DNA of 61,359 bases, the filler included. It is 7 parts of 7 records of this genome, joined end to end, with 100 filler letters (N's around TTAATTAATTAA, not from the genome) between each part and the next. Parts side by side here need not be neighbours in the genome. Positions count along the whole stretch, not along the records: positions 20,885 to 33,188 come from SRR7504441_988; positions 33,289 to 48,043 come from SRR7504441_994; positions 48,144 to 52,126 come from SRR7504441_998; positions 52,227 to 56,750 come from SRR7504441_1002; positions 56,851 to 61,359 come from SRR7504441_1009; 2 more parts are not named here. One strand, written 5' to 3'. The position numbers and the translations under genes were made by a program. The notes beneath the pieces were generated by a model. That model was not told the DNA's origin. It ran no database searches and worked only from the letters and a program-made list of their open reading frames with translations. Of the stretch, positions 21,185 to 59,900 are shown piece by piece (positions within the stretch are counted from its first letter, which is position 1; each line of letters starts with the position of its first letter).

Positions 21185-22568
21185 ATGGGGGACCACGTCC
21201 TCCGAGTAGGCTCTCCAGGAGGCCAACACGATGTCAACATCGTGCTGCTCGGCGACACCGGTGTGGGCAAGGCGCCTGCCCGCCACCGCCCACCGCCGAC
21301 CGGCCCGGGCAGACCAGCCTGCTCTACCGCTTCCGCCGGGATTCATTCAACGAGAAGGTGGCCACCCGGCCTGGCCGAGCTGACCGGGCTGGGCAGGAGC
21401 GGGCCAGCCTGAAGATCGAGACGGTGCGCCACGCTGGCGGCTGCCGGCTGAGCCGAGGGGCAGGTCGAGCACCAACTGGCGGACCCGGTCGGCTGCCCAG
21501 GGGCCGGTGCCGGGGCTCAGCCTGGGCCAGGAGAAGAAGCTCCAGCTGACCTCGACCCAGATGACCGCGCTGGGCGGGGAGGCCGTGCTGCTTAGGATTG
21601 TGTGTTCACGGCTGGCGCTCGGCTGACTGGTGCGGCAGAGCGACGTGGCGGGAGGGATCGGCGTGACGGCATCGGATAAGATTTCGTACCTAAAGCAGGC
21701 CGGTGTGGGGGGAGTGATGCTCGTGTTCGATGGGTCCAGGCCCTGGAGCGACTCCGTGGTGCGCCCGGGCTCCCGACGGCTATGGGAGCTCGGGTCAGGC
21801 GTCTCTTCTCAAATGGCAGACGAAATTTATAGAGAAACACGCCCCACAGGCTCGGCCGGCTGGCGTGCGGCTGGAGCCAGGGGCAGGCGGCGGTCCTGGT
21901 TCTGGCAAATAAGACCGCCGGCGAGCAGGTGCCGAGCCGGCCCGGTGCTGCTACTTCTCAGGCCTGGCCCAGGAGAGCTCCGGCCAGCGGCGGGGCGGCA
22001 AGTTGTTTGTTTTCAGCGACGGCCAGGCAGACTGCTCCCGTCGGAAGTAGCTCAGTCGAGGGCCGGCAGGACTTTGTGCAGCGCTGGAACGAGGACCGGG
22101 CCGACAAGGAGGCGCTGCGGCGCAAGTCTAGTGGGATCGTGCTTAGGAATACACTCGAGGAAAACCCGGCAGCGCCAGGTACTCTACCCTAGCCCTGCCT
22201 GGTTATAGGGATGCGCGCAGTTGAGTTCTTGACTGCGAGTGCCAAGACCGGTGTCCACGTTTCAAAGGTGAGAGCTTTGTGCATAGCTCTTGAACGAGTG
22301 TGGCAGGCGTTTCACCAGCTGGCTTCGGCGGTCATGCAGCGCAGGCTGGGCGGCAGTCGATGGAGCGGTCAATCTCGCCCGGTCGACTGGCCTGACACGT
22401 GGTTGACAGAGCCAGCTCAACCGATGGAGGTGGACACGATACAGCGGCCAGTGCCGGATGGGCTGGCGGCTGGCAAGGTCGGTTCCTGCAGGTACAGATG
22501 GTCATCTTGTGTGGCAGGGAGACGACAAGGGCGAGGATGCATGCTGCGCCAAGTGCGCGCTGATGTGA
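21185..22568 (+). CDS. Divergent Ras-superfamily (Rab-like) small GTPase with C-terminal CC and CaaX (CALM); ~13 introns of 37-44 nt, three of them GC-AG
   Basis: Spliced model gives IVLLGDTGVGK|TSLLYRF (G1), LLRI|SDVAGG (G3), GVMLVFDGS, AVLVLANKTA (G4), FLTASAKTG.HVSK|AFHQLA (G5), DACCAKCALM*. Start codon is tentative. Confidence 0.8.
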
Positions 22569-22827
22569 TCAACGAGGCGGTTCGTGACCATGGGCGGCTG
22601 ACTGGTTGCTAAACTCAATCTTAGTTACTTACTTCAAATGCATGTTGTGATTGAATAGATCCAACGCATTTGTGAGTGCGTTCCCGAGAGATCCGATCAT
22701 CTCTCAAAGATTGTGTGTGCACGAGTTTGTGATTACAAGCATGCGTCTATAGAAATTTGATTTACGCTCCCGTCCCTAAAGAGTAAACTTGACATGTACT
22801 AGTATTATTAACTGTGTGATACCGTAG

Positions 22828-23643
22828 CTATCTTCGGCCTGCCCCCGTCGAGCCCATAGATCTTGTCGATGACCCAAAGCTTTGGCTACCCCCTGCAGTT
22901 GCCGCACGCTGCCTCAAGTTGTAGAGCCCATCCTACAAAATAGGCCTCAGGCCAGCACCGGTCGCCCGCCCACCGCGGAGCCACGCGCCACCACGGGAGC
23001 ATTGCCCGGGTGCCAGCCCTTCGACGGTTGCACCGCGCGGCCAACTTGTAGTTCCCTGCCGCACTCGCCCCCTTCAGGTCCTTCTCGAACCCCTGCCCAC
23101 CCCAGTCAACAGAGCCGGCAGGCGGTCAGAGGGTCGAACCGATTTGTCAGTGGCTGCAGCGGTCAGAAGCTCCCTAATCCGACCCACCGACCCAGCTGCC
23201 TGCCGGCTGAAGCCCTTTGACGGGGCCAACTGTTTGAGCTTCCCCAGCTGCTTGCTCAACTCCTCGCCCCGCCCAAAATCGTGCGCATTCGCCGCCTCCT
23301 GCCGCGCCCGCTCGGCGATCACCGCGTAGCCTCGCCGGAACTGGAGCAGCCGCTGCCCGGCCGCAGCCGCCTCGTCGAAGTCCCTCTCCAGCAGCGCGGC
23401 GGTCCGTTGCTCACTCAGCGCGGTCAGCTTTTGGTCGAGCTCTGGGCCGTCCAGCAGCGCCGCCGGCTGCTCCTGCTGGACCACGAACTGGGGCTCCTCC
23501 TCCTCCTCCTGGACTGGCTCCTCCTGGACTGGCTCCTCCTCAAACTGGTCGTCGGCGTACTCGACCTCCTCAACAGGCTCGTCCTGCACCGACCCGGCCG
23601 GCGAAGTCTCCCAGGTGGCGTCCTCGCCCACCTCCTCGGCCAT
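22828..23643 (-). CDS. Hypothetical protein: acidic N-terminus plus short helical repeats resembling UVR domains; spliced 3' end
   Basis: MAEEVGEDATW..., EEEPVQEEPVQEEEEE; repeats ALLERDFDEAAAA, AANAHDFGRGEEL, ASAAGNYKLAARC. The 3' exon structure is uncertain. Confidence 0.5.
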
Positions 23644-23889: not shown

Positions 23890-26750
23890 TCACTCTTCCT
23901 CGTTGGGCGGGCCTGGCTCGGCATCCTCGAAATTTGCTTGCTCCGGCTCGGCGCTCGCCGGCTCGACTTCCTCGCCAATGTTCTGGGCGGCTGTCACGTC
24001 GGATCCGAGCTCCTGGGCATAGTCCGCCCGGAGCTGCATCGCACGAGAGTCGACCTCAATCCTGTACTGAACATCCCGCAGCTCCTTCTCCAGCTGCTCC
24101 GTATTGGTCTGCAACCAGCACATGAATCACCAGCCTCCGGCCAGGGCTCACCTTAAGCTGCTCTTCCAGTAGCTTCTTCTCCTCGGAGGCCGCCTCCCTG
24201 GCGGCTGTATGCTTCTCCAGAACAGCATCCACCGTCTCCTTCTCAGCCGCCACAACCTTGGCACAAGCTTGCAGCAGGGCAAACTTGCACTTCTGCTCAG
24301 GTGAGCCTGCCCATCCTTGTGAGCCAGCCGCTGCTGCACAGCCGCACCCTCGAGCTCGAGCAGCTGCTGCTTAGCCGCAACGCGCGCCTCCTCCTTGGCA
24401 TTCAGCACCTGCCCGCCCCCACTCAGCGCCCGAGTAGTGACGGTCTCGCACCTGCTGCTCGTCGTCAATCTGCTCCGCAATGTCTTCCGCCCGGCCCTTG
24501 GACACAAGATTGTGGTTGCTTAGCGCGTTCTGCTTAACCATCAGCTCCTGCCGCACTCGAGTCAGGCAATGCCCAGTATATAGCGGTGAGTGCCTGTGAG
24601 TTCTTGACCATCTCTTGATCTAGCTTCTTGATCCGCTCACCAACCGACTTAGTCTCCTCGAGCAGGATGTCCAGGCAGGCCTGCTTCTGCTGCTTCTGGG
24701 TGGTCTGACTCCTCAGCTGCTCCTCTGACAGCTCGAGCTCTGTCTTAACCTACCAGCCCCGCTTGCCGCCCGATCTGCTGATTGTCCGGAATACCTTTGC
24801 GGAGTACTCGTCCGTCCGAGCGGAAGTGGTCACTTGGGCGTTCATAGCCGACCGGATGTTCTTGAGCTGCTCCACGAATTCAGACTCCGCCTTCTGCATA
24901 CTCTGCAGCAGCGTGTCGCGCTGCTCGGTCGCCTTCGCCACCTCCTGCTGCTCCACATCGTTCTGCCCCTGTGGCCCGTCAGCCCCTGCTAGCTACACAA
25001 GGGCCACCCTGGTCCGACTCAACTCACTGTCGAGCAGCTCGATCAGTTTACCGCTCCCGTCACCGGATGCAGTGTTCCTTAGTGCCGATACCCCCATCTC
25101 ATGGCTCGACCGAAGCTGTGCCATCTCCTCCTGAGCACCCAGCGCAGCCTCCGCCTGCACGACAGCCTCAACGCCCACCACGGCTTGGGCCAGACCTCGT
25201 GCAGCCGGCCCCGGAGCTCAGACTGTACCCGGTCGTTCTGCTCGATCACCTCCTTCTCCTGGGCCTCGAGATTGTCTATCTTTAGTCGGTCAGACTCTCT
25301 GGTCTGGGCGAGCTCCATCGAGTCTTTAACCATGTTTTGGTGGAAGGCCGATATGTTAACCGCCTCTGCCTCGTTTTCCTCGATCGCTGCCTGGAGCTCC
25401 TCGATCTGCCCAGCGAGTCAGCCTGTCACACACAATGCGACGCACGTCGGCAGCGAGCGACTCCTTCATCGCAGTCAGGTGCTCTTTCAGCTTCGAGTTG
25501 GCTGCGCCGCGCCTGCGCCAACCCGTCACCGCAGCCGGTCCCTCTGCACCGCACCGCTCGGCCGCATCGATCTCCACTTGGACGTCCAGCCCCGCCTGCT
25601 TGTCCTCCTTGGCCTGGTCCTCCTGCTGGCACTTAAGCTCCTTCAGGCTCTCCCTGATCCGAACTATATTCTTCTCCACGTCCGCCAGCTCAGACTCGAG
25701 CCGTCCTGTCGGCCTGTGCATACGCCGCTTCTCCTGCTCGAACTCGGTGGCAAAGTCCGACGAGACGCCCGAGAGCTTCAACACATACGTCTGCACGCAG
25801 TTGCAAAGCTCTGTCTGGGCCGACACGCCGCTGTCCGCTTCCACAATCTTCTTTGACAGTTCCGTCGAGACCTGCCTCGCCGCTCAGACCCACGGAGCGT
25901 GCGTGCCCGGCACCTCGGTCAGCTTGCTGTCTATCTCGGTGCGCTTCGTCTCCATCGCCGATAGACCTTTGGCCTGGTCACTCAGCACCCCGCTCACGTT
26001 GACCAGCTTGGCCGCCCCAAGCTTGCCCGCCTCGGCCATCGCCTGCCGCCGCAGCGACGAGATCATCTGGCCGTCCCCGGTGCTGCTCAGCTCTGAAGGC
26101 GTCAGGCCTGACTCAAACGACTCGATGACTGCAGAATCCGGGTACAGCTGCTGGCCCTTGGCCAGGAAGGTGTCGACAGGGTCGCTGGAGGCGACCGTGT
26201 CGTTCTCCAGCAGCGCCTGCAAGTAGTCGTTCAGGCCGAGCATTCGCTCCCGCACGACTGCCGCGTCCGTGGAGGACCCGAACAGCTTTTTCCCCGGCAG
26301 CTTGGCTTGGGTGTGCGGCCCGACTATCTTGTGCAGGGTCTCGAACTCAGAGTAGCGTTTGTGTACCGTCCAGCTCGACGACTTGTTGGACATGCCGATT
26401 CTGAACACTGTGAACCGGTTGTTTTTAATCGACACGTTCATCGCGCCGGCTATCCCGGCCTGCAGCCCGGCCTTGTGCCCCTTGAGCACCCGGGAGAGCA
26501 CGAACCGGGTGGCCAGGTGTTTGGGCTGAGCCTTGAGGTAGGTCATCATGTCCTCGTGCGACTGGTTGGGGCAATCGTTGATCTTCTCGATCACGTCCCC
26601 CTTGCACACGCCGGCCCGGTCGGCGTTCTTATCCGGGACCACGTCCTTGATCACGCACCGGCCGTTCCGCTGGCTGAATCCGATCCCAAAGGGCCGCATC
26701 AGCGACACCTCCACAAGCTCCTTGGCCGCCGCTGTGCCGTCGTCCGTCAT
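23890..26750 (-). CDS. PDZ + PX domain protein with a long C-terminal coiled coil (sorting-nexin-like); ~10 short introns
   Basis: PDZ: RPFGIGF..VIKDVVPDKNADRAGVCKGDVIEKIND. PX: FTVFRI..WTVHKRYSEFETLHK..LPGKKLFG..VVRERMLGLNDYLQALL. The downstream coiled-coil ORF pieces join via ~39-50-nt introns. Confidence 0.8.
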
Positions 26751-26855: not shown

Positions 26856-27899
26856 ATGGTCGGCCTGCGGCGGGGTCCTGCATGGGCTGTGCTCCTGCTC
26901 CTGCTCGCCCTGCGTCCCTGCAGCGCAATGCCAGCCAGTTCTGGTGTTGCAATCGATTGGAGCCGGACGCTCGCTGTGACACAGACAGTGCCCACCTGCC
27001 AAGTGGTGGTCGAGCCCCCGCTGTGGCCAACCTCGGACGTGCGTGAGACACAGCTGCACTGGCTCGCCGAGCTCGGGCCCGAGGCGTCCCCCGTCTTCTG
27101 GCAGAGCTGGTTCATCTATCCCAAAACAGGGGTCGCTGAGCTGTCCCCGGGTAACTGGGACTTTGACCAGATCACCCCGCTACTCCAGGACATGCTCCGC
27201 GCCACCCGAGGGAGAGAGCTAGTCTTCCAGTTCGGCACCGTGCCCAGCTGGCTCCAAAACGGGCCCACGGGACTACGGCGCTGGGACTACGGCGTCCAGG
27301 CGTGGAATGCCACGCAGACGTGGGGGTACAACTATCTGCCGGGCCCACCGGATAGCTATTCAAACCCGATCTTCCGAAACCTGAGCCAAGTCGGGGAATA
27401 CTATGCCAATTTGATCTCGTACTACACGGCTGGCGGCTTCACCGATGCCAAAACCGGCAAGCGCTACAACGGCTTCCGCTACAACATCCCCTGGTTCGAG
27501 TTTGGTAATGAAATGGAATACAAGCAGACGCCGGCGGTCTTTACGCAGCAGCACGACGTGGTGGCGGCTGCCGTTGCGAAGGTCGCCCCGGGCATGAAAT
27601 TCCTCGGGCTCGGGCTCGGCCAGAACTACTACTCGAAAACCAACTTGTCCTACTTTGATTATTTCCTGGACTCCTCCAACCACGCTCCCGGCGCCCCCCG
27701 CCTGCTGCTGCTGGTGAACAAGCGTATGGAGCCCTCGAGCCCAATTGTTATCGGGGAGGATTGGGGCTGTGTAGAGAGTATTGACGGGAAGAGCCCGTGG
27801 GCGGCGCCGACCCGCACAGCACCGCCGGCTGCCGGGGCTGTGACGCTAGGATCATTTGGGGTGGCCATCCTCTCCGAAGCGCCGTGCGAAGCGCTGTAG
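26856..27899 (+). CDS. Secreted GH39-like (clan GH-A) glycoside hydrolase, apparently lacking the second half of the barrel
   Basis: Signal peptide; VAIDWSRTLAVTQTVPTCQVVVEPPL, YPKTGVAEL, WDFDQITP, FGTVPSW, YYANLISYYTAGGFTD, WFEFGNE (acid/base NE), MKFLGLGL, YFLDSSNHAPGAP followed directly by LLLVNKR. Confidence 0.65.
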   Translation: MVGLRRGPAWAVLLLLLALRPCSAMPASSGVAIDWSRTLAVTQTVPTCQVVVEPPLWPTSDVRETQLHWLAELGPEASPVFWQSWFIYPKTGVAELSPGNWDFDQITPLLQDMLRATRGRELVFQFGTVPSWLQNGPTGLRRWDYGVQAWNATQTWGYNYLPGPPDSYSNPIFRNLSQVGEYYANLISYYTAGGFTDAKTGKRYNGFRYNIPWFEFGNEMEYKQTPAVFTQQHDVVAAAVAKVAPGMKFLGLGLGQNYYSKTNLSYFDYFLDSSNHAPGAPRLLLLVNKRMEPSSPIVIGEDWGCVESIDGKSPWAAPTRTAPPAAGAVTLGSFGVAILSEAPCEAL

Positions 27900-28954: not shown

Positions 28955-30620
28955 ATGGCTGCAGTTGGCTTCCTCAGGAACTGGCCCGAGTGGCTGGTGC
29001 CCGCGCCCGACCCGCAGCCCGGGCTCGAGCTCTTCTTCCCGCGCTCGGCCCTGCTGGACGACTCCGAGCACAGCCACTGGCGCCCGCGCCGCTGCTGCCC
29101 GGCCGAGGTCACCCTGGACCTCAAGGCAGCCCCCCCCCCCCTCTCTCCCAGCCAGCGGGGGGCAGGCGGTGGCCGAGCTGAGCCAGATGGCCCTCCAGGT
29201 CTCGTCCGCCGGCTCGCTGGACTGCAAGTGGGCCATCCGGTGCGCAGACCGGCTGGCCGCGGAGTTCGGCCAAACCAGCTGGCGCACCGTCCAGGCCGGC
29301 GATCAGCTGCCGCCTGATCCGACCGCTGCGGCGGGTGGCGAACCGGCAGCACTGAGCTGGCGGACGCTGCGGTGGGAGCCGCCGGTTGAGGCTAGGTTCT
29401 GGCAGCTGACCTTGGAGGCGGCGGGGGCTGGGCTGAGGGCCCACCAGCTCCAATTATTTGGACGGGTCACCGGCCCTGGGCCGCCTCTGGGCATCACGGG
29501 GCCTACTGGGCGGACACTCCCTAAGCTTCAAGATGAGCTGATCGAGATGATGATGGCGCCAGAGGGCCAGCCAGCCAGTGGCGAGTGGACCAGGGTATAC
29601 TGCCAGCTGCCCCGCAGCGCAATCGGCTGTGACGCCGAGCTGGTCCTGCTCGACAGCCCGGCGGCTGACGCCGAGACGAGGCTGCGGATGCCGCTGGAAG
29701 ATGCAGAGTGCGCCTGAGCGGGTGCCTGGCTGAAGGCCTGGCAGGTTCCGTCGATGCAATAATTGGTTCGGGCCTAGCTCAGTGCAGCTGACCAGCCGGA
29801 GCACACAGCAGAGTGTGCTGCTCAGGCCAGTGGTCAGGCCCAGACCCACCCCGCGCCCGGAGCCCGAACGTTCCACGCGAGAGACACCGGCCGCTGCGCC
29901 ACCTGAAACGTCTCCGGTGTCCGTGCTCTGGCAGCTAAGCGCCGAGGGGCTGGGCAGGCTGTGGGAGCCGTTCAGTCGGACCAATCCCCGCGGCACGCCC
30001 GCGAGAACCTGCACTGCAGTCTACTCAAGGCTGGCCGCGGGGTGGCTCGAACGTGAGGTGGCTGCAGGTGGTCCAACGGCAATCGCGGCAGCTCACCGGG
30101 TCGAAGTGGGGCCCCCCGCAAGCGCACTGGCGGGTGCCGAGTTGGACCAACGACTTGAACCAGGAAGTGGCGCCGGACAATGCGCAGACCCCGGATAGAG
30201 TTGTGTGCAGCTCGGTGCACACTGCTCCTGCTTGGGCGTTACCGGCGGAGCAGGACCGACAGTGGGTTGGGGAGTGGCAGTGTGGGCAGTGGGAGTACGC
30301 AGAGGAGTTTAGCAAGCCGCCGTCCAAGTGGTCGCCCAGCAACACGTTCTGGACACGGGTCCGCCGTCGGCACTGGACCAGGAACACGATGCCCCGGGAG
30401 GATTTCGATAGCGAGAGCGAGAGTGGAGAGCTGCCTGAGGTATTGGAGGTGCTTGCCGATGCGCTGACTAGCGGGGCAGCACGGGATGATGCCTGTGTCG
30501 CTTAGCCCGAGGACCCCACAGGCCCGGCTGCCAGCGCAGCGTGACTGCCGTGGGTGTGTTAGTGGCTGCACGGTAGGTGGCTCGATCGGCGTGTGCTAAG
30601 CCTAAGTGCAGGTGAGTTGA
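28955..30620 (+). CDS. Multi-exon protein: discoidin/F5-8C-like domain, PH-like segment, dysferlin (DysF) domain, C-terminal CaaX (CTVS)
   Basis: LLDDSEHSHWRP..EVTLDLK|AVAELSQMALQ..WRTV..PPVEARFWQLTLE..HQLQLFG (discoidin-like); QWVGEWQCGQWEYAEEF..W..TRVRRRHWTR (DysF); final GTAGGT...CTAAG..GCAG intron gives ...DCRGCVSGCT|VS*. Middle exons are not fully resolved. Confidence 0.6.
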
Positions 30621-30793: not shown

Positions 30794-32009
30794 CTATGAC
30801 GAGGTTAGCGCGTCATACAGCCTCCTCTTAGTGTCGCTCGCCGCCTTGCGGCTCCGTGGGCTCCCGCCTGTTCTAATACTATTCCTCTCACGCGCCTACC
30901 CCCTTGGATCAGCCCAGTCCCGGCCCAGGCAGGCACCCGCATTGTCTCCTTGAAGATCTGCTTTATCTTGGCCTCGTCGCTGGCCTCCGCAAACCTCGGG
31001 AACGCCTCCGGTGGCCTAAACCTGCCACACGCTGAGCCACTGGCTCAGCTCAAGCCATGCCTGCCAGATCGCGTGTGCTTCTCGATTACCTCCGACATGC
31101 CCTTGTACTTGCCGCACGCGGTCCAGTTGTATCCCTCCCGCAGGCACTCGGATCGCCACTGCTTCCGCCCGTCCGGCTTTGCAAGCACAGTAACTCTAGG
31201 CTGGGAGAGGGGATCGTTCTGCATGCTAGCGTATCGTATAGGGTACCTGCCCATAGGTCAGCCGACCAGTCGCTGTGTCGACGCACCGGTCATCTTTAAT
31301 CCTCTCGGCCATCGGGCACAGCTTGCCATTCTCAGCCATGTAGGGCTCTGGGTCATACTGCTCTGTCCTGATTGATACCTGCACTGTCGACTCAGCTGCA
31401 GCCAGCCCCCCTCGCACCGTCGGCGACGACTGCTTCACTGTCCGCGACGGCGCCGAAAACCCCGGGTGGCTCAACTCGCGCGTCTCGGGCCGCAGAATCG
31501 GCGGGGCCTTTGGAGAGCGCACTAGGGACACCGGCTTGGCAGAAACCTCTCGCTCGCGCGCCGGCGGGGGTTCCAACAGCTCTGGCGAACTCTCCTCCAC
31601 CGGGGGCGCCTCCACCGGCGGCGGCTCGTCGCTCTCTCCGGGCCCCACCCACCTGCCGCGAGCGTGGGCGGGCCGGCCGGGCAGGGCACGTACAGGTAGA
31701 TTCCGCCGCCCCGTCGCTGCAGGTCGATCTTTGTGTCGGTGAGGAAACAGTTGACCGCTGGGTTACCGTCCCTGGCCAGCCGGGTCAGCCGCTGGCCGCT
31801 GGGCCGGGCGCCTGCCGTCCAGCTGCGACACCACGAAGCCCTGCAGCGACTGGGAGGGCAGCTCGAGCTTATCTGCGATCTGGGCGAGGGGTCAGCGGCG
31901 GCCGGAGGGGGCAGCGAGCCTGCTTGTAGAGCTCGCGGTAGGTGCAATCATTGTCTACGCTGAGCAGGAACTTCTTGCCCCCTAGCTCGGTGAGCAGTTG
32001 CAGCAGCAT
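30794..32009 (-). CDS. Hypothetical protein with a ubiquitin-like N-terminal domain and Pro/Glu-rich linker; ~7 introns, three GC-AG
   Basis: MLLQLLTELGGKKFLLSVDNDCTYRELYKQ|IADKLELPSQSL (beta-grasp-like pattern). The frame is continuous only after removing introns at 31880-31919, 31772-31811 and 31022-31060 (GC-AG) plus four GT-AG introns. Confidence 0.65.
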
Positions 32010-33188: not shown

Positions 33189-33288
33189 NNNNNNNNNNNN
33201 NNNNNNNNNNNNNNNNNNNNNNNNNNNNNNNNTTAATTAATTAANNNNNNNNNNNNNNNNNNNNNNNNNNNNNNNNNNNNNNNNNNNN
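33189..33288. other. Artificial contig spacer
   Basis: N44-TTAATTAATTAA-N44. Confidence 0.99.
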
Positions 33289-36200
33289 CAATTCATTCTG
33301 GAATCGAACAAAAGCTACCAGGATTACGGAGCTTAGTTCAAGGACTACACTCCATATTAAGGCACAATGTCTCTCTGAACTTACCTGATTGCCAAGAATG
33401 GTCTTCAAAACCGCTATCTGGCTTGGAAGGCCTAAACAGTAAGCTACCTGATCAAGGCTTCACAGCAGTTGTGCTCGCCAATATCAGGGGAGCAGCTGGT
33501 ATAAGCATAAGCATTGATGAGGAACTTACAGCCGCAGGAGTAGATTCCTTATCGACGATTGAACTCCGGGGAAATTTACAGCGTGATCTAGGCATTCAGT
33601 TGCCATCCACATTCAGTGTCGACTATCCCACTGTCCGAGAGCTAGTGGCTTTCCTGCAGTCTGTGCTTGCTGCTGGTTCAGTACCAGAGCAAACTAATAG
33701 ACTTGCGCCTGTTCTTATGCCCACTCCCTCCAATGACACAATTTCTGCTCAAACGGACGTGACAGCTGAAGCTGCTCCTGATGCTGGCGGCCGGGTTCAA
33801 GATGCTGCTTTGCTCTGGACGACCCTGTGCAACGCCAAGTGTCAAATGACCATGCAGAGTAGGCAGTACAGCATGGCCCGAATTCACAAACGAGCGGAGG
33901 AATTCATGAAGACTGTTCGGATACTGAGAGAGAGGCATTCCATACGCAGGACCAGTTGTGCCATTCCGTGCTTCTCATATGGCATCACAAAGAAGGATGC
34001 CAGTCTCTGCACAATCATGGGGCTCGCATGCCAACTGCCGTCTGAAGTCAACCAACCGCCTGAAATGTGGGCAGCTCTGTGTTCAGAAGAATGTTTCATT
34101 TGTAGAAGCGGACCCTCTCGCTGGCAGGATGCCTGTTCTCAGGCAAACACTTCGTCAAAGTTTGCAGGTGCATTCCTGGCAAATCTGCAGAGGACAACCT
34201 TGTCCTTGCTGGATTCAGGGTTGCCGGTAGATCCACACATACATGTCCTTCTTCAAGTCGTTGATCAAGCCATTTCTGAATCAGGCTGGGATTACAGATC
34301 CGCAAGAGAGTGCACCGGGGTCTTTACTGCTATTGACACAACCAGTCTGATCATTGAAATGCCGTCTTTTGCGGTGTCCAGGGCTGTTGCATCAGCGTTT
34401 TGCATTGAAAGTGCTTTTGCGTCCAACGTGTGCAACCTCGAAGCAGCTTGCTCTTCTGGCTATCTTGCCTCATGCGAGGCACTTAAGCATGTCACAAATG
34501 GGCTGTGTGAATACGCAATTCTTGGCGGAACAAATCTATTGCTAGAGCCAAGCAAATACTTGAGGACTTTTGAGGGCGGCCTAATCTCCCCAACAGGCAT
34601 TATGAGGCCATACGATGCTCATTCAGATGGGATTGTGATGGGAGAAGCTGCTGGCGCGATCATCTTCGAGAGAAGTAGGCAGTCTGTGAGTGCATATGGC
34701 GGGGTGCGAGGCTGGGCAACAACGCCGACAAGCCCATTACTACCAGTAGGCTGTACAGACCCTGCAGCCATAGCGAAGGTGGCAACTGCCGCACTTTTCA
34801 AAGCAGGTTTGCATCCAAAGCATCTTGCCCTTGTGCACATGCACGCGACGGGGAATTCGGCATGCGACTTACCTGAGGTTGCAGGCATTTTAGATGCATT
34901 AACCTCGACTGACCGAAATAACCCACCAGCTCTCACCAATCATAAGGCTACGTTTGGACACAGCTTGGATGCCGCCGGAATTGTAGCACTAGTGAGCACA
35001 ACAATGAATATGCAGCACAGGATGGTGCCAATTCATGTAAATATCATGAGCCTAGACAGTTTAATTCGATGTGAAACGACGATGTTGTTGCCATCCACAC
35101 ATGTACACCATTTCAAAAGCAATAGCTACTTTTGCGGAGGGATCAGCGGGACATCAGTGAGTGGGGACAACATACACCTGATACTGTGTAATACCGATTC
35201 AATTGCTGAAAGGGTGCATGTGACGACCAAATCATCAACAGCGCCCGCTGAAATTGTGCCAGAATGCACTCTCTCCACCACAGCACAAGCACCAATTTCT
35301 TCTCTGCAGCGGATTACTACAGCTCTGAAAGGGCTGTTCTGCACTTTGATGCCATGCGATCTACGAGATGTGAATGACGACGACGACTTGACACGGCTCT
35401 CATCTCGTAACATGGTCATTCTCTTGATGAAGCTTTCGAAACAGATAGACATGAGGCTGTCTATGACGCTCATCTTCAATCACCGAACGATTCGCGAGGC
35501 GGCTTTATTCATCAGTAATCAACTTACCGGCAAAGACGACCTGATAGAGCTCAAGCCGAGCATGGATGCACCCGGGGTGAGAGCGCCTCAGCAACTCAAG
35601 TTGGATCCAGATATCATTGCATCACTCGTGCATCAAACTGGTCGCACTGCAAATAATCATTCACTCTATAGTCGCATGGCTGGTCCATGTTTAGTCACAG
35701 GAGCGACAGGCTGCATTGGCCAGGAACTCTTCAATGAACTTCTGATTTCCCGGCAAACGAACGACAGAATCTATGTTTTGATTCGTGCAGCGGATAAGAT
35801 GACAGCCTATGAGCGGCTGAAGAGCGTGCTCAGCGACCGCCTCAGTCAGCTGCCAGATTGCGTCGTGCCAGTTGTGGGCGACGTATCTGCACCTAAATTT
35901 GGTGTAGCAAAGGAGCTGTACAACACCCTGGCCAAATGCGTGAAGGTCGTGTATCATTTCGCCGCCCAAGTAGACCACATTAGTCCATACGACAAGCTGG
36001 AGGAAGCCAATGTCGGCGGTGCCCTAAGTGTAATCCGTTTTGCTACCACAGGGTGCCTTAAGCATATCCATTTTGCATCCACTATTGCTACCACTGGTAT
36101 TGAGAATGGCATCACTAGTGATGACTGTCGTGGAGCACTGGACGACATGGAGACAGGCTACTCTCAGACGAAGTGGGTTGCTGAAAGTCTGATGTTGCAA

Positions 36201-38588: not shown

Positions 38589-39030
38589 TTAAGACATCTA
38601 TAAAGAGAAATATAATATAATAATGTCATGATTCTTAGAAGTCCCTACATGATGACATCTGATGTACGTAATACTCGTACTGTAAAAATTGAATGTTCCA
38701 CTGTAACAACGCATGCAACAACAATTAATTACGCACATGTACATGTATTAGCTTAGTACTAGGTTATTATGTGGGGCTCCGAAGTCCTTCTAAACTGTAC
38801 TTTATATACGCAGTGTACAGCAGTACTCGCGATCGTAGAGTACGTACAATCAATTGCAGCGATGTCACGAAGTATAAAGACAAACAATTTCAAATTCCAG
38901 CCTAGCTCCTGCCACGTACTGGCAGAGAACAAGAGCATCATTGACGCACATGAGATTGACTGCTTAATTGTTGGAAGTAGTTACTTACACTACATAGCCA
39001 GTACCGAGTAGCGTGACAATCACTCAGCAA

Positions 39031-39503: not shown

Positions 39504-39511
39504 GCTCAATG

Positions 39512-39527
39512 CCGTTATTCGCAACGG
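39512..39527. promoter_or_regulatory. Pair of oppositely oriented YAACGG (Myb-type) motifs in a divergent promoter; example of a recurring element
   Basis: CCGTTA at 39512-39517 and CAACGG at 39522-39527; the same motif occurs upstream of genes at 7470, 21118, 26813, 32072, 41719, 43041, 44741 and 47362. Confidence 0.5.
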
Positions 39528-39608
39528 AAAGACAACTTCTACGTAAGCAGATCAGGGGTTGAAGAAGGATAGAAGAAGGAGCTGCTAGTGCATGTGGAAG
39601 AGTGTAAG

Positions 39609-39821: not shown

Positions 39822-39874
39822 TCACCGTCCCGCGGTCGACTCCGCACTCTTAATGAACATGCACCTCAACGTCC

Positions 39875-44157: not shown

Positions 44158-44705
44158 TCATAAGCTGCGCGGCTTCTTTCTATTGTGCCGTGAGAAGAGC
44201 CCACCCGCCTGCCGCCCCGGCTGGCCGCTCGGCCAGCTCAGTCCGGGCGCCTTCCTGGGCACTTTGCGCGGGCCGCTCTCGGTCGGGGCGGTGGCGGACT
44301 CCTCGTCGCTCTCCGCAAACTCCTCCATCGTCTCCTTGATCTTTTGCTGCCTTTCGCTCTCCCGCTGTGCCGCCAGGTGCCTGGCCTTCCGTTTCTTGTC
44401 CGCCTCATCACGCGCGCGCTGCCTCCAGCTGGCAGCCGCCCAGGCCGGGGGTCGCCTCCTGCCGCTCTGCCTCCTTGGCTGACCAGCGCTCGAACGAGGC
44501 CTCCTTGGCCTCCCTGATGACCTGCCGCCCGCCGGTGGGCGCCCGGTGGCCGAGGCCGCCACGCCTCCTTGTCCTCGTCCTTGAGGGTGCGGTTGTCCTT
44601 ATCCAGAAAGTCCGTGGTACCGCCCAACCCCTCGCCCGTCAGCTGGAAGTGCGTTGTCGGGTCCTCCGCCCCCTCTCCCGGACCCTGTCCGATCAGAAAC
44701 TCCAT
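44158..44705 (-). CDS. Small charged hypothetical protein; two GC-AG introns (44522-44564, 44419-44455)
   Basis: MEFLIGQG..LKDEDKE|VIREAKEASFERWSAKEAERQE|RARDEADKKRKARHLAAQRESERQQKIKETMEEF; the frame is continuous after these two splices. Confidence 0.6.
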
Positions 44706-46189: not shown

Positions 46190-47316
46190 TCAAGCAGGAT
46201 CATATCTTCGAACGCATATCATAGTCCTTTCACAACTAGTGTTCCCGAAAAGCCAAACCACCCTAAAGCGCTCAAACCAAGGCTCCAGAATCGCCTGGGT
46301 GTCCTCGGCCCACTTCTGCACCCCAGCTAACGGCAGCCGCTTGGGCAGTTTCATTGTGAGTACCAGCGGCGAGCCCGGCTCTAGAATTTCGGCCAGCGGA
46401 ACCAGCATGTCCCTGGCCGTGTCCCGCGGATCGCGGTTCACGTCGCACACAAGCAGCGTGGCCCTCGGCAGCCCGGCCACCTCTTGCGCCGGCAGTTGCA
46501 CGTGCGTCACGTTCTCTAGCCCCGCCACATCGGGGTGCAGCTCGCCGGGATCGATCGCAGTGACCAGCTCGAACCCCTCTGTCTGCGCCAGGAACCTTGT
46601 CCACCCGCCTGGGGCCGCCCCCACGTCCACGGCGTGCTGCCGCACAATCTGCCGCCCAGCTCGCGAGGCGGGCTGGCTGAGGGGCACCGGAGCGCCCTCT
46701 TGCTGCAGGCTTTGCATAGCCTCCCGCATCTTATACTCGGCATGGTTCAGCCCGACCAGACCGGCAGCCGGAGCCCGCTGACCGGCCATGCAGTGCTGCT
46801 CGTACTGGGCCGCGGTCCAGACGCCCACGGCCCAGCACTCAGGCCCAACCTCGTGCAGCGGTATCAAGCTGAGGATATGCTCAAACGACTGCGGCGCCAG
46901 GCTAGCCGCGCAGCTCGCAAGCAGCCCGGATTCTTCCATCCAGTCCTGGATCCGCTCCTGCAGCTGCCGGGTGTCGCAGTGCACTCGGATCCTCGAACCG
47001 TGCAGCCGACCGCGCAGCTCGGCTTCCACCACCTGCGCCGGCTCAGCTCACAGCCGGCAGACTCGCACGCCTGCTCCATACTGCCACTGACCCGACGGTC
47101 GCACGCGAGCAGCTTCGTGCACGTGCGTGAGAACCCGGCGCGCTGGCTCAGCTCGGCGAGGACGGCCAGGGGGCATTCGCCGGTGCTGGCCCACACAAAG
47201 CTTTGCTCCGGCCGGGTGGTGACTCGGCTGAGGGCCGGAGATGCCGCCAGGAAGGTGTGGTACCGGGCGGTGCAGTTCGGCACCGATAGCACGCCGATAC
47301 AGCCCGACTGCTCCAT
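46190..47316 (-). CDS. FtsJ/RrmJ-fold 2'-O-ribose methyltransferase (RlmM/YgdE-like); GC-AG intron 47033-47070
   Basis: AEYKMREA, AVDVGAAPGGWT, VTAIDPGEL, LLVCDVN, VLTMKLP, FGNTSCERT supply the K-D-K-E tetrad. Confidence 0.85.
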
Positions 47317-48043: not shown

Positions 48044-48143
48044 NNNNNNNNNNNNNNNNNNNNNNNNNNNNNNNNNNNNNNNNNNNNTTAATTAATTAAN
48101 NNNNNNNNNNNNNNNNNNNNNNNNNNNNNNNNNNNNNNNNNNN
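48044..48143. other. Artificial contig spacer
   Basis: N44-TTAATTAATTAA-N44. Confidence 0.99.
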
Positions 48144-52126: not shown

Positions 52127-52226
52127 NNNNNNNNNNNNNNNNNNNNNNNNNNNNNNNNNNNNNNNNNNNNTTAATTAATTAANNNNNNNNNNNNNNNNNN
52201 NNNNNNNNNNNNNNNNNNNNNNNNNN
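52127..52226. other. Artificial contig spacer
   Basis: N44-TTAATTAATTAA-N44. Confidence 0.99.
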
Positions 52227-54731: not shown

Positions 54732-56747
54732 TTACGCAGCAGCCTTGCGGGCATAGTATTTATCAAGAGTCTTCTTCTTCATCTTGAGCAGATCTTTCCT
54801 GTTGAAGACGCGCATGATCTCCCAGCCGATGTCCAGCGACGCAAAGATGTCCCGGTACTCGTATGGGCCCTGGGACACAAACTTCTCCAGGAACTGCTCG
54901 TTAAAGTCCAGGTGCAGCCTGTCCTTGTCCGAGAGCGACTCCTCTCCGATCACAGCCTTCATCCCCTCGGTGTCTTGGCCCACGGCGTACAGAGCGTAGA
55001 TCTGGTTGCACACCTGCCACCCAGCTGGCCACAGCCCCATGCCATCAAGCTCACCTCGCCGTGGTCGGCCCGGGTGAACTTGCGCTCCTTTGTCTCCCCA
55101 ATTCCGCTCTTCATTAGACGTGAGAGAGACGGCAGGATGTCGATCGGAGGGTAGATGCCGCGCATGTGCAGCTTACGCGAGACAGAGATCTGGCCCTCGG
55201 TAATGTAGCCGGTCAAGTCCGGAATCGGGTGGGTCAGGTCGTCATTTGGCATAGAGATGATCGGAATCTGGGTGATAGAACCCTCGCGGCCGTCCACACG
55301 GCCAGCGCGCTCGTAGATCGTGGCAAGGTCGGTGTACATGTAGCCAGGGTATCCACGGCGTCCCGGCACTTCCTCGCGCGCGGCCGACACCTCACGGAGA
55401 GAGTCGGCGTAGGAGGTCATGTCAGTGAGGATGCACAGCACGTGCCGACCGCAGTCATACGCCAGGTACTCCGCAGTTGTGAGAGCGATCCGAGGGGTGA
55501 TGATACGCTCGATGGTCGGGTCCATAGCCTGGCCAGCCATGCTCAGCCCGGCTCAAGCGGCACGCGCACAAGGTTGAGGAACATGACAAGCGTCTCAAGG
55601 GCGCCGTTGCATTCAAAGTCCTGGACCAAAATCTCAGCCACCACACAAACCAGGCCAGATACCTGCTTGAAGAACCGAGCCGTCTCTGTGGTGGTACCCA
55701 TCGCCCCGAAGACAATAGCGAAATCCGATTTCTTGGGCGCGTCGCCGGGCTGGGTCACAAGACCGGCCGACCGGCAAATCTGGGCGGCAATGTCGTTGTG
55801 TGGGAGACCAGCTCCTGAGAAGAGCGGAATCTTCTGGCCGCGGACAACGGACATCATGGTGTCAATGGTGGAGACGCCGGTCTGGATCATGTCCTCTGGG
55901 TACTCGCGGGCAAACGGGTTGATTGGTTGTCCTGCACAAAGAATATCACAAGAGAGCGCAGGATCCAAGATGGCATCACAGCGACTGATTGGGACCAAAG
56001 CCAGATCGACAATAGCAAGGGAGGCTGACTATGTTGGGAGGCTGGGATCTTAGACAGGCAATGGCGGGCAGGCTAAGATCTCAGGCAGGCAAGGGCTTAA
56101 ACCGAGCCACTCAAGAGACCGCAACAACCCAGACCCAATCCCCAAGCTACTGACCGTTGACATCTAGGAAGTCGTCGGCGATCACTGGCGGGCCGTTGTC
56201 CACTGGGATGCCAGCGCCGTTGAAGATCCGGCCAAGCATCTCTTCGGAGACCGGCACCCGCAGGACTTCGCCAGAGAACGTGACGGTGGTGTCCCTGTTA
56301 TCGATGCCTTGGGTGCCCTCGAAGACCTGAACCCAAGGCGTCAGCGTCAAGCCGTCCAGCGGCCGGGCCATTCTGACCTGCACCACGGCGTTGTTGCCTT
56401 CCACCTCGAGCACTTGACCACGGCGGCCACGGCCGTCGCCCAGAGTGAGCGACACGATCTCGCCGTATTGCGGGTTCTGGCCCCACCGGCTCCGCGGGCC
56501 ATGCATTGGCGGGCTGCGGGCACCTTGATCCCTTGCAGAATCACCAGCGGGCCCTTGACGCTCTCAATGGTGTGGTATTCTGTGCAGCGGCACACGAGTC
56601 AGACGCCAGCCGGACGTTGGCCGGGCGCGGGGTGGACGGACCGACGCGGGGCTCGATCACGAAGTCGCGCTGCATTGCGGCCAGGTGGGCCTTCATCTCG
56701 GCCTCCAACGAGCTGGTGGCGCCCGAGAGGAGGTTCGGTTCCGCCAT
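54732..56747 (-). CDS. ATP6V1B: V-type H+-ATPase subunit B, 7 GT-AG introns
   Basis: [138 protein letters not shown]. Confidence 0.97.
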
Positions 56748-56750
56748 CGC

Positions 56751-56850
56751 NNNNNNNNNNNNNNNNNNNNNNNNNNNNNNNNNNNNNNNNNNNNTTAATT
56801 AATTAANNNNNNNNNNNNNNNNNNNNNNNNNNNNNNNNNNNNNNNNNNNN
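56751..56850. other. Artificial contig spacer
   Basis: N44-TTAATTAATTAA-N44. Confidence 0.99.
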
Positions 56851-56932
56851 TATTCTCACTCTATGCTGGTCCAGCCCGTACTCGCAAGAGATTCACAGAC
56901 CGACCACCTGGATACAAATGCTCGGTTGACGC

Positions 56933-59900
56933 ATGGCAGCGGAATCTGAGCTGCAGATAGGCCAGCGGGTGGAGGCCAACGGCCCCGGCCGGCTGGGCAC
57001 CATCGCCTTCACCGGGATGACCAAGTTTGCGAGCGGGGTCTGGATCGGAGTCATCCTGGACGCCCCGGGTCCCCCGCCGCCGCCGCGCACTGGCTCAGCC
57101 CATGCTCCAGATGGTAAGAACGATGGGAGCGTCAACGGCCACTCGTACTTCAGCTGCGAGCCCAAGCACGGCGTATTCGTCCGGTCCAGCCAGATCAAGC
57201 TGCTCGAGGTGCGCCTCCGCCCCCAGCCCCCGCCAAGCTCAGCCGCAGGAGTCGGCCGGGCAAGCCGAGCCAGCCGAGCCGGCGGCCGAGCCCGAGGACG
57301 TGAAGTCCAAGTACGCCAACAAGGTGCGGCAAAAGAAGCTGGCGCTGGCCGAGCGCCGCAAGGAAATCTCCAAACAGGAGGAGATCCGCGAGAAGAAACG
57401 AGGTGCCCAGGGTGAGGGTGCGGAGCCAGCCGCCGGATGCAGACGAGCCGGAGGAGCCCGCTGCCGAAGAGACCAAGGCAAACACAACCGTCTCCAAGCC
57501 GCGCCGAAGCTCAGTTGAGGCTGCCGAATCGAAGCAGCCGATGGATGATCGGTCCGCCGTGCTGGAGAAGCAACTCACAGAGGCCAAGGCACTTGTGTGG
57601 CAAGCTCGGGTCGAGCTGGTCGGGGCAGGCGGGGCGAGAGGCCGCGATTGGCAAGATGAAGGAGGCAATCAAAGAGAGAGATGCCGCGCGCAGCTCATCA
57701 TGTGTTGCTGAAAAGGAGGTGCGGGCGTGCACCAAAGAGTGGGCTGAGTGGAAAGGACAGTTGGAGAGCTGCAAAGCCAAGCTGGGCCAGATCGAGCAAT
57801 CGCAGGCCAAGTTCGAGGAGGAGAAGCAGGAGCTGGCCGACTTGGTGGAGAGCCTGACTATGGACGTGGAGATGGAGCGCGACGAGAAGGAACTACTTGA
57901 GGAGAAGGTCGGGCGTGCAGACGGTCCGGCTGAGGCTCCGGCAGGCGGCTGAGCTCGAGCTGCGGGTGGCTGAGCTGGAGGGCGACATTGAGTCCTACCT
58001 GGAGGCCAAAGAGCAGCCAAACAGCACGGGAGGGGATGAGCTGAGGCTAGTAACTGACCAGAATGAGAAACTCAAGGACGCACTGCAGCGGCTGCACGAG
58101 GCAACGCTGGTGCAGCAGAACAGGATAAAAGAGCTCGAACGCGACAATAAGACCATTGAGGGCCTGCAGCAGCAGGTGGGCGCCTAAAGCCGCAGCCGAT
58201 TCAGCCGGGCCTCCAGGTGATTGATCTGACAAAGAAAGCCAAGAAGGTGGACGGCCTGACAGCCGAGCTTGAAGAGCTCAAACAAGCCCTGGACGAAGCC
58301 AGCGAGTTCGGTGAGTTTGCCGAGGAGCTGACTGAGAAGAATCTCAAGCTGAGCGAGCAAGTGAGCGAACTCAAGGAGCAGGCAGCTAGTCTGACGATAA
58401 CTAGACTCAGAAAGGCTTTCACAGGTCGACTTTTACGAGGAAATGAAAGAAGCTGCGGAGGAGGTAGAGCAGGCCCAGCTAGAAGAGATCCGGGAGCTGC
58501 AGGTGGGCGGCGGCACGCGAGCGGCTGAGTCTGTGCAGGTTGAGCTGAGTGAGAGGGAGGGGCTCGAGCAGAATTCTGTGGTTGCGATGCAGCAAATGAA
58601 GGCTCGGGTGGAGGAGCTCGACCAGAAGAACGAGCAGCTGCGAGCCGCCCTCAAGAGCTCGCAGGACAAGCTGGGCGAGCAAGGGGTGGATGCTATCATG
58701 CAGGTACATCTATCTGATTCAGAGCACTTGAGTGTGTCCTAAACCTAACCGTGGATTGGCAGGAGTGTGCTCAGGTCTCTGAAGCAGAGCAGCAGGAGAT
58801 CCGGGCCCGGAAGTTCGATGAGCAGAAACACGCTGACGAAGTCGCTACCTCTAAACTTGAGCTCAGCATGGCGCTGGCTTCTTCTCAAGTGCTGCAGGCT
58901 CGTGAGAAATGCCTTGCCGCAATGGTGAATAGCGAGGCTGATTTGCGTTCGATTGATACTATTGCCCACCTCACCTCGATCAAATTCAATGGCGAGCTGG
59001 TCGAGGCCGGCCTCAGGTGCGCTCACTGCGGACGCTGCAGTGCTGACATGGCATTGCAATGCCCTGCAGACAGCAAGTTGGATGTATTGCTGCATCTGGC
59101 GAAATGGCCGAGCTCGAGGTTTGCGTCAAAGTGCAAGTCGCCATCTCCGATCTAATCGGCACTGCTGAAAGTATCTTAGATGCTATGAAGCAGACTGAGA
59201 CAGTAACACAGAATTTTCAATAACCTCAGATCACTGATCAAGCCTTTGTGGTGTACAGGTCTTCCTGAAGCTCGGTGAGCGCCATCGCGATGTAAAGCTA
59301 GTTGCTGCCACTGTTGATCAGCTTCTTGCTGACATGAAGCGAGGAGAGGTGACCTGTGTGTACGCTGCCTGGTGTTGAATCGCCTGGTGGTAGCTGCCAA
59401 GGCTGGAGTCTGCTCTGGAGCTGGTGCACAAGCTGACGGGCATCCAGTCATCGGAGTCCCTAACCGAGCTCGACTACCTGCCCGGAGTGCTGACAAGCGC
59501 CACCCGCAAATTAGTAGCTAAAGCATACCTCCTGAGCGCTGCTGGTGCCCAAATCAAGTCAATAGGTGAGCAGCCCACACGCCCTCTGGATGGCCATACT
59601 CGCGGCAATTGGTTGGCGCAACTTATCCGTGTGTCAGGCAACTCGGCCGTGGTTTTGCGAGCTTCGAGTGTGATTGTGGCGCATGCTCAGTCAATGACTC
59701 AAGCTGCCGACCGCGTTCTGACCAAAGTCAAGGCACAGGGCCCGCAAATACTTCCTGTGGGTGCGTCTACAGCGCTCTTGCATTGGGGTGATTTGCACTG
59801 TTGCTTTAGATGCGGTTCAGAAGAGCAATATACTCGGCGCTCTAGATGGTGTAGCAAGTCAGGCAGACCGCATCATGCGCTCGCTGGATCAATCTGAATG

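What the first reader, a model, noticed from the sequence alone, without database searches (positions are those of the whole stretch)
21272..58424. Frequent GC-AG introns with no intronic donor consensus: possible length- and exon-AG-defined splicing
Seen in sequence: frames or conserved motifs are restored by GC-donor introns at 21272-21312 (splits the P-loop GVGK|T), 21850-21886, 22027-22069, 29126-29165, 31880-31919(-), 31772-31811(-), 31022-31060(-), 44522-44564(-), 44419-44455(-), 47033-47070(-) and 58382-58424. The last gives a gapless match to p150 [25 protein letters not shown] as I recall the human sequence. All are 37-43 nt and all follow exonic AG. Their first six bases vary freely: GCGCCT, GCTCGG, GCAGAC, GCAGCC, GCTCGC, GCGCCC, GCATGG, GCGTGG, GCGACC, GCGTGC, GCAGCT. 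GT donors are also degenerate (GTCCCC, GTGCCC, GTGGCC). The 3' ends are G-rich (GGCAG) without a pyrimidine tract, often with CTGAC/CTGAG just upstream. Established knowledge: GC-AG introns are about 1% in most eukaryotes and usually need a near-perfect AG|GCAAGT. Inference: U1/U6 pairing is relaxed or altered, and U5-exon contacts plus intron length select the sites.
Basis: partly seen in the sequence, partly recalled or inferred. Interest (0 to 1): 0.75.

Follow-up and report, generated by a model that had tools for sequence, protein, structure and literature searches.

The report
Tiny introns, some starting with GC
This GC-rich marine protist breaks its genes with very short introns, and roughly one in ten to one in five starts with GC instead of the usual GT, a real habit that is already known from other GC-rich plankton.

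Summary
All 11 segments sit at the stated coordinates, begin with GC, end with AG, are 37-43 nt long and follow exonic AG.

Evidence for the 11 claims:
- One (58382-58424) is placed by transcript-like homologues and by a solved dynactin fragment.
- One (21272-21312) is forced by the P-loop motif.
- The other nine rest on reading frame and on signals they share with GT introns.

I found two more homology-placed GC-AG introns, at 57589-57628 and 24548-24593.

How frequent GC donors are:
- Among 35 homology-placed introns in three genes, 3 start with GC (9%).
- Model-based counts suggest about 15-25%.

A gene parser whose splice signals were trained only on GT introns recovers 13 of 13 GC sites exactly.

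GT donors are degenerate too. Past +3, no position carries more than 0.3 bit.

The mechanistic reading, altered U1/U6 pairing, could not be tested. The window holds no snRNA gene, no genome is held, and no RNA run was listed.

Abundant GC-AG introns are already in print for Emiliania huxleyi, Aureococcus and Micromonas pusilla. In the last two the U1 5' end is canonical.

This scan reported the same habit three times on other pieces of this genome. It is a new member of a known kind, useful mainly for gene prediction.

The parts
58382..58424 (+).
   Evidence: Boundary enumeration without any splice-site rule, scored against the transcript-like homologues P0001/P0002, puts GC..AG in the top-scoring set. 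The in-frame GT alternative (64 nt) would delete 7 residues that are present in both homologues and in solved dynactin 4rfx_A.
57589..57628 (+).
   Evidence: Co-optimal in the enumeration, giving a gapless alignment to P0001/P0002. The GT alternative 6 nt downstream (34 nt) scores more than 15 points lower.
24548..24593 (-).
   Evidence: It is the only G[TC]..AG solution within 40 points of the best score against four homologues (332 against a best of 344). The better-scoring options have non-canonical ends. An X1 DNA contig runs through it without gaps.
21272..21312 (+). Claimed GC-AG intron (41 nt) splitting the P-loop GVGK|T of a Rab-like GTPase
   Evidence: The exon end aligns to the P-loop of Rab-26 and REM2 as the two top PDB hits, though E is about 1 and not significant. 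The in-frame GT alternatives remove the Walker A lysine or more. Recovered exactly by the GT-trained parser.
21850..21886 (+). Claimed GC-AG intron (37 nt), Rab-like gene
   Evidence: Recovered exactly. Acceptor score at the 93rd percentile. There is no homologue evidence. The one GT inside the segment that keeps the frame would leave a 22-nt intron (read directly).
22027..22069 (+). Claimed GC-AG intron (43 nt), Rab-like gene
   Evidence: Recovered exactly. Acceptor score at the 98th percentile, with CTCAG 15 nt from the 3' end. No homologue evidence.
29126..29165 (+). Claimed GC-AG intron (40 nt) in an unnamed gene
   Evidence: Recovered by three parser versions. Acceptor score at the 99th percentile. 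The only homologue found (P0006, E=4.9e-5) does not resolve the junction, and other boundaries score as well or better.
31880..31919 (-). Claimed GC-AG intron (40 nt), N-terminal part of an unnamed gene
   Evidence: Recovered. CTGAC lies 12 nt from the 3' end. No homologue was found and single exons give no Pfam hit.
31772..31811 (-). Claimed GC-AG intron (40 nt), same gene
   Evidence: Recovered. CTGAC lies 13 nt from the 3' end. Acceptor score only at the 84th percentile.
31022..31060 (-). Claimed GC-AG intron (39 nt), same gene
   Evidence: Recovered. Acceptor score at the 99th percentile. At 39 nt the length alone does not shift the frame.
44522..44564 (-). Claimed GC-AG intron (43 nt) in a small charged protein gene
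   Evidence: Recovered by the signal-aware parser. A frame-compatible GT alternative exists (49 nt), and the simpler parsers chose it or a nearby boundary instead (the 49-nt GT; a shifted GC donor with the same acceptor). Unresolved.
44419..44455 (-). Claimed GC-AG intron (37 nt), same gene
   Evidence: Recovered. Acceptor score only at the 70th percentile and no branch-like motif.
47033..47070 (-). Claimed GC-AG intron (38 nt) upstream of an FtsJ-like methyltransferase exon
   Evidence: Recovered. CTGAG lies 10 nt from the 3' end. The scan for related loci found none.
56933..61250 (+). Dynactin p150 gene with 18 introns (16 GT, 2 GC)
   Evidence: CAP-Gly Pfam hit. Homologues P0001/P0002 cover the whole protein. 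Alignment resolves 13 of the 18 junctions. The other 5 were assigned to the best option of typical length, all GT.
54735..56750 (-). V-ATPase subunit B gene with 7 GT-AG introns and no GC intron
   Evidence: Consecutive open frames match consecutive parts of PF02874, PF00006 and PF22919. Two in-frame introns show up as 14- and 17-residue insertions against solved V-ATPase B. The other five were placed from the frames and from family knowledge that I recalled.
23890..26750 (-). PDZ-PX gene with 10 introns (9 GT, 1 GC)
   Evidence: Pfam PX and PDZ hits. Homologues P0003, P0004, P0013, P0022 and P0023. Junction enumeration.

Best explanation
These are ordinary introns of the major (U2-type) spliceosome in a GC-rich protist that uses very short introns, mostly 36-60 nt. 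The 5' splice site carries little information inside the intron. It is read mainly from the exon end (A at -2, G at -1), the G at +1, a pyrimidine at +2, and a preference for G, C or A at +3. The other signals are CAG|G at the 3' end and a loose CTRAS-like branch motif. The whole intron is recognised as one short unit. Because U1 pairing past +3 contributes little in any intron here, a T-to-C change at +2 costs one base pair and is tolerated when the exon ends in AG. GC-biased composition then lets such donors accumulate to roughly 10-20% of introns. Shown: the segments, their boundaries at three sites, the shared acceptor signature and the degenerate donors. Inferred: which snRNA contacts are used, and that GC pressure is the cause.
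For: - Three GC-AG introns are placed by homologues whose uninterrupted open frames fill their contigs. One of them is also placed by a solved dynactin fragment.
- Their lengths (43, 40 and 46 nt) would shift the frame of conserved downstream exons if the segments were kept.
- A parser with donor, acceptor and length models trained only on 32 GT introns recovers 13 of 13 GC sites exactly.
- 11 of 13 exceed the 90th percentile of random AG|GC..AG segments on the GT-trained acceptor matrix. Branch-like motifs occur in 7 of 13 GC and 14 of 23 GT introns, against 26% of random segments.
- In the AG|XY decoy test, GC gives 10 introns against 0-5 for the decoys.
- In 31 GT donors, -2 is A in 22, -1 is G in 28, and +3 is G 20, C 7, A 4, T 0. 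Positions +4 to +6 carry at most 0.28 bit each.
- All 13 GC donors follow AG.
- There is no excess secondary structure: mean z is -0.12 for GC introns and 0.16 for GT introns.
- Published precedent in GC-rich protists: E. huxleyi has 56-65% GC donors, some checked by RT-PCR (PMC4028052, passages read). Aureococcus has 39.6% and M. pusilla 22.2%, both with a canonical U1 5' end (PMC3033335, passages read).
Against: - No RNA from this organism was seen.
- Ten of the 11 claimed sites lack homologue support. One search found no homologue, one found only a distant one that does not resolve the junction, and two metagenome scans found no relatives.
- 44522-44564 has a competing GT solution.
- The V-ATPase B gene has 0 GC among 7 introns, and the homology-placed fraction is only 3 of 35. 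So 'frequent' may mean about 9% rather than 25%.
- Two decoy controls discriminate poorly.
- The link to GC content is unclear. Claimed-only GC introns are 80% G+C, but the three homology-placed ones are 56%, against 65% for GT introns.
Confidence: 0.75

Rival explanations
1. The spliceosome of this lineage has relaxed or altered U1/U6 recognition of the intron side. Sites are then chosen by U5 contacts with the exon AG together with a fixed intron length.
For: Intronic donor positions +4 to +6 carry almost no information in GT or GC introns, and all 13 GC donors follow AG.
Against: No snRNA or spliceosomal protein of this genome could be examined. GT introns of 36-72 nt and one of 223 nt are spliced in the same genes, so length is not fixed. 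In Aureococcus and M. pusilla, abundant GC-AG introns coexist with a canonical U1 5' end (PMC3033335; analogy only).
Confidence: 0.12
2. GC-AG introns are real here but rarer than claimed. Several of the ten claims without homologue support would then be mis-placed, with the cell using a nearby GT donor, other boundaries or a different gene model. The true share would be about 9% or less.
For: Only 3 of 35 homology-placed introns are GC. Many open-frame alternatives exist at each site. A GT alternative competes at 44522. The parser also further GC introns at background level, one of which (60825-60863) lies inside an exon that homologues show to be continuous. Decoy donors give comparable raw counts.
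Against: All 11 claims are recovered at exact coordinates by a GT-trained model. Most GT alternatives give introns of atypical length or remove conserved residues. Acceptor scores match those of GT introns.
Confidence: 0.25
3. The segments are not introns. They would be assembly insertions or deletions, or coding sequence that is retained.
For: None found. No RNA was available to exclude retention directly.
Against: The segments are 37-46 nt long with defined AG|GC...CAG ends, not single-base errors. Keeping them would shift the frame of exons conserved in homologues. A DNA contig from run X1 covers 24385-24634 without gaps, though X1 may be the source sample.
Confidence: 0.02
4. They are non-conventional introns of the euglenid kind, removed with the help of base pairing between the intron ends and not by standard splice signals.
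For: The borders are degenerate on the intron side.
Against: The ends are uniformly GC..AG after exon AG. Folding energy is no lower than in shuffled sequences (mean z -0.12, 13 introns). The acceptor signature is the same as in GT introns.
Confidence: 0.02

Closest known systems
Emiliania huxleyi nuclear introns (Feldmesser et al. 2014, PMC4028052; passages read)
   Same: A GC-rich marine protist in which GC-AG is a major donor class, the acceptor stays AG, and the habit misleads GT-based gene prediction. The authors attribute it to high genomic G+C.
   Different: There GC is the majority: 56% of 241 curated junctions, and 61-65% in other sets. Here it is a minority, 3 of 35 homology-placed. 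In the passages I read I saw no statement on intron length or on donor consensus beyond the dinucleotide.
Aureococcus anophagefferens and Micromonas pusilla introns (Iwata and Gotoh 2011, PMC3033335; passages read)
   Same: Exceptionally high GC-AG shares (39.6% and 22.2%) in genomes of 66-70% G+C. Aureococcus has the largest 'information deficit' of splice signals among 61 species. The same paper finds intron length informative in protists.
   Different: Both are algae from other lineages. Their U1 5' ends were checked and are canonical, which could not be done here. The paper saw no length difference between GT and GC introns within a species.
GC-AG introns of vertebrates and plants (about 1%), said to need a strong consensus at the other donor positions (recalled; the 1.3% average is in PMC3033335)
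   Same: The same termini and, presumably, the same major spliceosome. Compensation appears on the exon side, with AG at the exon end in 13 of 13.
   Different: There is no intronic consensus here: positions +3 to +6 vary freely. The frequency is about ten times higher or more.
Short-intron 'intron definition' with length as a signal (Lim and Burge 2001, recalled; the method is cited in PMC3033335)
   Same: Narrow length distribution, weak individual signals, and recognition of the intron as one unit.
   Different: This is a general concept and not a family. Introns here are unusually short (median 43 nt) and G-rich at the 3' end, with no pyrimidine tract.

Membership tests
Major (U2-type) spliceosomal GC-AG introns | Intron begins with GC and ends with AG | tested here: met
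   13 of 13 sites
Major (U2-type) spliceosomal GC-AG introns | Removal restores the reading frame and a gapless match to homologous proteins | tested here: inconclusive
   Met for 3 sites: 58382, 57589 and 24548. A motif argument supports 21272. For the other 9 there is no usable homologue.
Major (U2-type) spliceosomal GC-AG introns | Same acceptor and branch signals as the GT-AG introns of the same genome | tested here: met
   11 of 13 lie above the 90th percentile on a GT-trained acceptor matrix. A branch-like motif occurs in 7 of 13 GC and 14 of 23 GT introns, against 26% of random segments.
Major (U2-type) spliceosomal GC-AG introns | Excised from RNA at exactly these junctions | not testable with these tools
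   No RNA holder was listed. The only run, X1, is DNA contigs.
Major (U2-type) spliceosomal GC-AG introns | Strong consensus at the remaining donor positions (AG|GCAAGT type) | tested here: not met
   The exon AG is met in 13 of 13, but +3 to +6 carry 0.04-0.61 bit per position. The feature is recalled from vertebrate data and may not define the class in protists.
Minor (U12-type) introns | Donor of the [AG]TATCC type with a TCCTTAAC-like branch site | tested here: not met
   None of the 13 donor hexamers has that form. The motif itself is as quoted in PMC3033335.
Euglenid-type non-conventional introns | Variable borders, with stable pairing bringing the intron ends together | tested here: not met
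   The borders are uniform. Folding z-scores are near zero (mean -0.12).

The most novel reading that the evidence does not exclude
In this lineage the 5' splice site would be a minimal code: exon AG, then G, then a pyrimidine, read with almost no pairing to the intron beyond +3, and with intron size of about 40 nt as a co-signal. This would go with a change in U1, U6, U5 or the U1 snRNP proteins. GC and GT donors would then be near-equivalent by design, not merely tolerated variants.
Probability: 0.1. Interest if true: 0.6.

Novelty: new member of a known kind. Interest (0 to 1): 0.3.

Why it matters
The main value is practical. Gene finders that expect GT donors, longer introns or pyrimidine tracts will mis-annotate this organism. 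Many of its introns are also in frame and free of stop codons (36, 42 and 51 nt), so open-frame logic does not see them. Biologically, this adds one more GC-rich marine lineage to the short list with abundant GC-AG introns, which supports the view that composition drives the habit. It offers a natural test of how little intron-side information a 5' splice site needs, but only once RNA data and the snRNA genes are in hand.

Tried and rejected
- Whole genome: none is held for this window, so no genome-wide census and no snRNA search were possible.
- RNA evidence: no RNA holder was listed. The one run, X1, is DNA at low depth, with short contigs about 98-99% alike.
- Rfam on the window: 0 matches at gathering score.
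- Homologue search for the gene carrying the claims at 31022, 31772 and 31880: nothing found.
- Metagenome scans for relatives of p150 (low-complexity patterns) and of the methyltransferase exon: no relatives.
- Representative search for the 29126 gene: one distant hit, P0006, which does not resolve the junction.
- Single exons of the Rab-like gene and of the 31880 gene against Pfam at E up to 10: no hits. My impression that the latter begins with a ubiquitin-like domain is recalled and untested.
- PDB search with the second and third Rab-like exons read through the in-frame intron between them: uninformative.
- PDB search with the exon after 58424: uninformative.
- Parser with a plain second donor dinucleotide: not discriminating.
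- Iterating the signal-aware parser drifts upward, from 18 to 32 GC calls, and over-predicts on antisense strands. I therefore did not use it as a census.
- Cluster look-up for organism names of the homologues: none carry a name. The telonemid label in earlier notes of this scan was not tested here.

Full report
**What the window is.** It is 61 kb of a eukaryotic nuclear genome. G+C runs from 47 to 69% in 2-kb bins. There are six pairs of 44-base masked runs. No whole genome is held for it. Earlier notes of this scan place 33 other windows in the same genome and call the organism a marine protist, probably a telonemid. Three follow-ups on other pieces already reported tiny introns with many GC donors. 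I did not test the taxon.

**The observation.** Each begins with GC, ends with AG, is 37-43 nt long and follows exonic AG. The first six bases are as listed.

**Why frame restoration is not enough.** In this GC-rich DNA many frames stay open, and each site has many in-frame GT or GC alternatives. I wrote a simple gene parser (three-periodic Markov coding model, introns of 30-65 nt ending in AG). Allowed GT plus any one other dinucleotide, it called 26 GC introns but also 8-23 decoy introns. Sharper evidence was needed.

**Homology-placed introns.**

*Dynactin p150 (56933-61250, + strand).*
- One exon of this gene found two proteins of 1146 and 1159 residues, 61-62% identical to that exon. Their open frames fill contigs of 3.5-3.7 kb, so they look like transcripts of relatives.
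- I enumerated every donor and acceptor position around each junction, with no splice-site rule, and scored the resulting peptide against both homologues.
- The gene has 18 introns. Alignment resolves 13 junctions: 11 GT-AG and 2 GC-AG.
- The other 5 junctions lie in poorly conserved stretches. I assigned them to the best option of typical length, which was GT in every case.
- Both have in-frame GT alternatives (64 nt and 34 nt). Both alternatives lose.
- For 58382, the seven residues the GT alternative would delete are present in both homologues. They also align to a solved dynactin fragment, 4rfx_A, right up to the exon end (E=0.005).

*PDZ-PX gene (23890-26750, - strand).*
- Homologues are 72-74% identical, with full-length members of their cluster.
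- They place 10 introns: 9 GT and 1 GC, at 24548-24593.

*V-ATPase subunit B gene (54735-56750, - strand).*
- It has 7 introns, all GT.
- Two of them are in frame and appear as 14- and 17-residue insertions against solved V-ATPase B.
- The other five follow from the order of Pfam matches across frames and from my reading of the frames.

*Total.* 3 of 35 homology-placed introns are GC (8.6%). By my own arithmetic the Wilson interval is about 3-22%.

**Signals.** In 31 GT donors, -2 is A in 22, -1 is G in 28, and +3 is G 20, C 7, A 4, T 0. Positions +4 to +6 carry at most 0.28 bit each. Acceptors are CAG in 27 of 31 and TAG in 4. A G follows in 20 of 31. The preceding dozen bases are G- and T-rich, not a pyrimidine tract.

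All 13 GC donors follow AG, against 21 of 31 GT donors (p=0.02).

**Tests of the claims that lack homologues.**
1. With the exon context fixed as AG|XY, the parser AG|GC introns (score gain 15.8). The 14 decoys give 0-5 introns and gains of at most 8.5. Seven of the 11 claims are recovered, and the Rab-like gene is missed altogether.
2. An acceptor matrix trained on 23 GT introns puts 11 of the 13 GC candidates above the 90th percentile of 1514 random AG|GC...AG segments. Their mean score is close to the leave-one-out mean for GT introns.
3. A parser whose donor, acceptor and length models come only from 32 GT introns, with GC allowed at a prior of 0.1, returns all 13 sites at exact coordinates. 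It also rebuilds the Rab-like gene with 11 introns, 3 of them GC.
4. That parser also other GC introns. At least one is false: 60825-60863 lies inside an exon that the homologues show to be continuous.
5. In the matching decoy run GC has the largest score gain (73.1, against at most 45.1), but its raw count per dinucleotide is not exceptional. Part of the decoy calls sit on the acceptors of the 13 sites, for example 7 of 19 for CA. Without those calls, 3 to 12 remain for each of the eight decoys checked.

My reading is that about 13 GC-AG introns in this window are real, or mostly real, and that further calls are noise.

**Site by site.**
- 58382: placed by homology.
- 21272: forced by the Walker A motif. 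The exon end is the P-loop in the two best, though non-significant, PDB hits, and the GT alternatives delete the lysine.
- 29126: plausible, but the only homologue is too distant to decide.
- 44522: competes with a 49-nt GT intron.
- 44419 and 31772: the weakest acceptor scores.
- The remainder rest on frame plus signals.

**Mechanism.** Nothing suggests anything other than the major spliceosome working in intron-definition mode.
- Termini are uniform.
- Acceptor and branch features are shared with GT introns.
- There is no folding signal.
- None of the donors has the U12 form.

That the exon AG makes up for the lost pair at +2 follows from established U1-donor pairing, and it is inference here. 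Altered snRNAs could not be checked. In the published cases most like this one, Aureococcus and Micromonas pusilla, the U1 5' end is canonical, and the authors call the origin of abundant GC-AG introns an enigma (PMC3033335).

Length is a soft signal. GT introns of 36-72 nt and one of 223 nt occur in the same genes.

**What is known.**
- Emiliania huxleyi: 56% of 241 curated junctions are GC-AG, and 61-65% in RNA-based sets. Some were confirmed by RT-PCR (PMC4028052, passages read).
- Aureococcus 39.6%, M. pusilla 22.2%, Chlorella sp. 7.7%. The authors link this to G+C (PMC3033335, passages read).
- A correlation between genomic and splice-site G+C has been reported across kingdoms (PMC7072748, passages read).
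- For telonemids I found no paper on splice sites. Two searches turned up only listings. A 2026 preprint reports first genomic data for the group, and the passages I read do not mention donor types.

**Verdict.** This is a new member of a known kind, already noted three times by this scan on other DNA of the same genome.

Noticed in passing
window 57069-57110, 58503-58538, 56327-56377(-), 55621-55662(-), 25513-25554(-): Several introns are multiples of three (36, 42, 51 nt) and contain no stop codon. They read through as plausible peptide insertions and are invisible to open-frame logic. Homologues or solved structures expose them as 12-17-residue insertions.
   Followed up: yes
window 1-6000 and about 33300-39800: Two stretches of 47-51% G+C in a window that is otherwise 55-69% G+C. 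Their open frames of 80 residues or more gave no Pfam match (30 frames from these two stretches and their edges scanned). The parsers call few or no genes there. They could be repeats, mobile DNA or foreign DNA.
   Followed up: partly
window 6977-7076, 20785-20884, 33189-33288, 48044-48143, 52127-52226, 56751-56850: Six pairs of 44-base N runs, each pair separated by 12 bases. The regular form suggests masking, not assembly gaps. The last pair cuts the 5' end of the V-ATPase B gene.
   Followed up: no
window 27065-27155: One low-depth DNA contig of run X1 skips 89 bases here (ends GC..AA, only 21 letters on the shorter side). It may be a strain deletion or an assembly artefact. It lies in an intronless-looking exon of the gene at 26856-27899.
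   Followed up: no
window 55932-56154 (-): The V-ATPase B gene holds one 223-nt intron that is more AT-rich, among six introns of 41-62 nt. The spliceosome here therefore also handles introns five times the usual size.
   Followed up: partly
window 21185-22400 (+): This Rab-like GTPase gene is cut into about 12 very short exons (9-40 codons). As far as I could read it, the usual DTAGQ switch II motif appears degenerate. It may be a divergent or catalytically altered Rab-like protein.
   Followed up: no
window 15278-20784 (-): A large DDX60-like helicase gene (PIN-like DDX60 domain, DEAD and Helicase_C hits) with only a few introns. Next to it are intron-free GH35 beta-galactosidase, lactonase and ELO genes. 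Intron density differs strongly between neighbouring genes.
   Followed up: no
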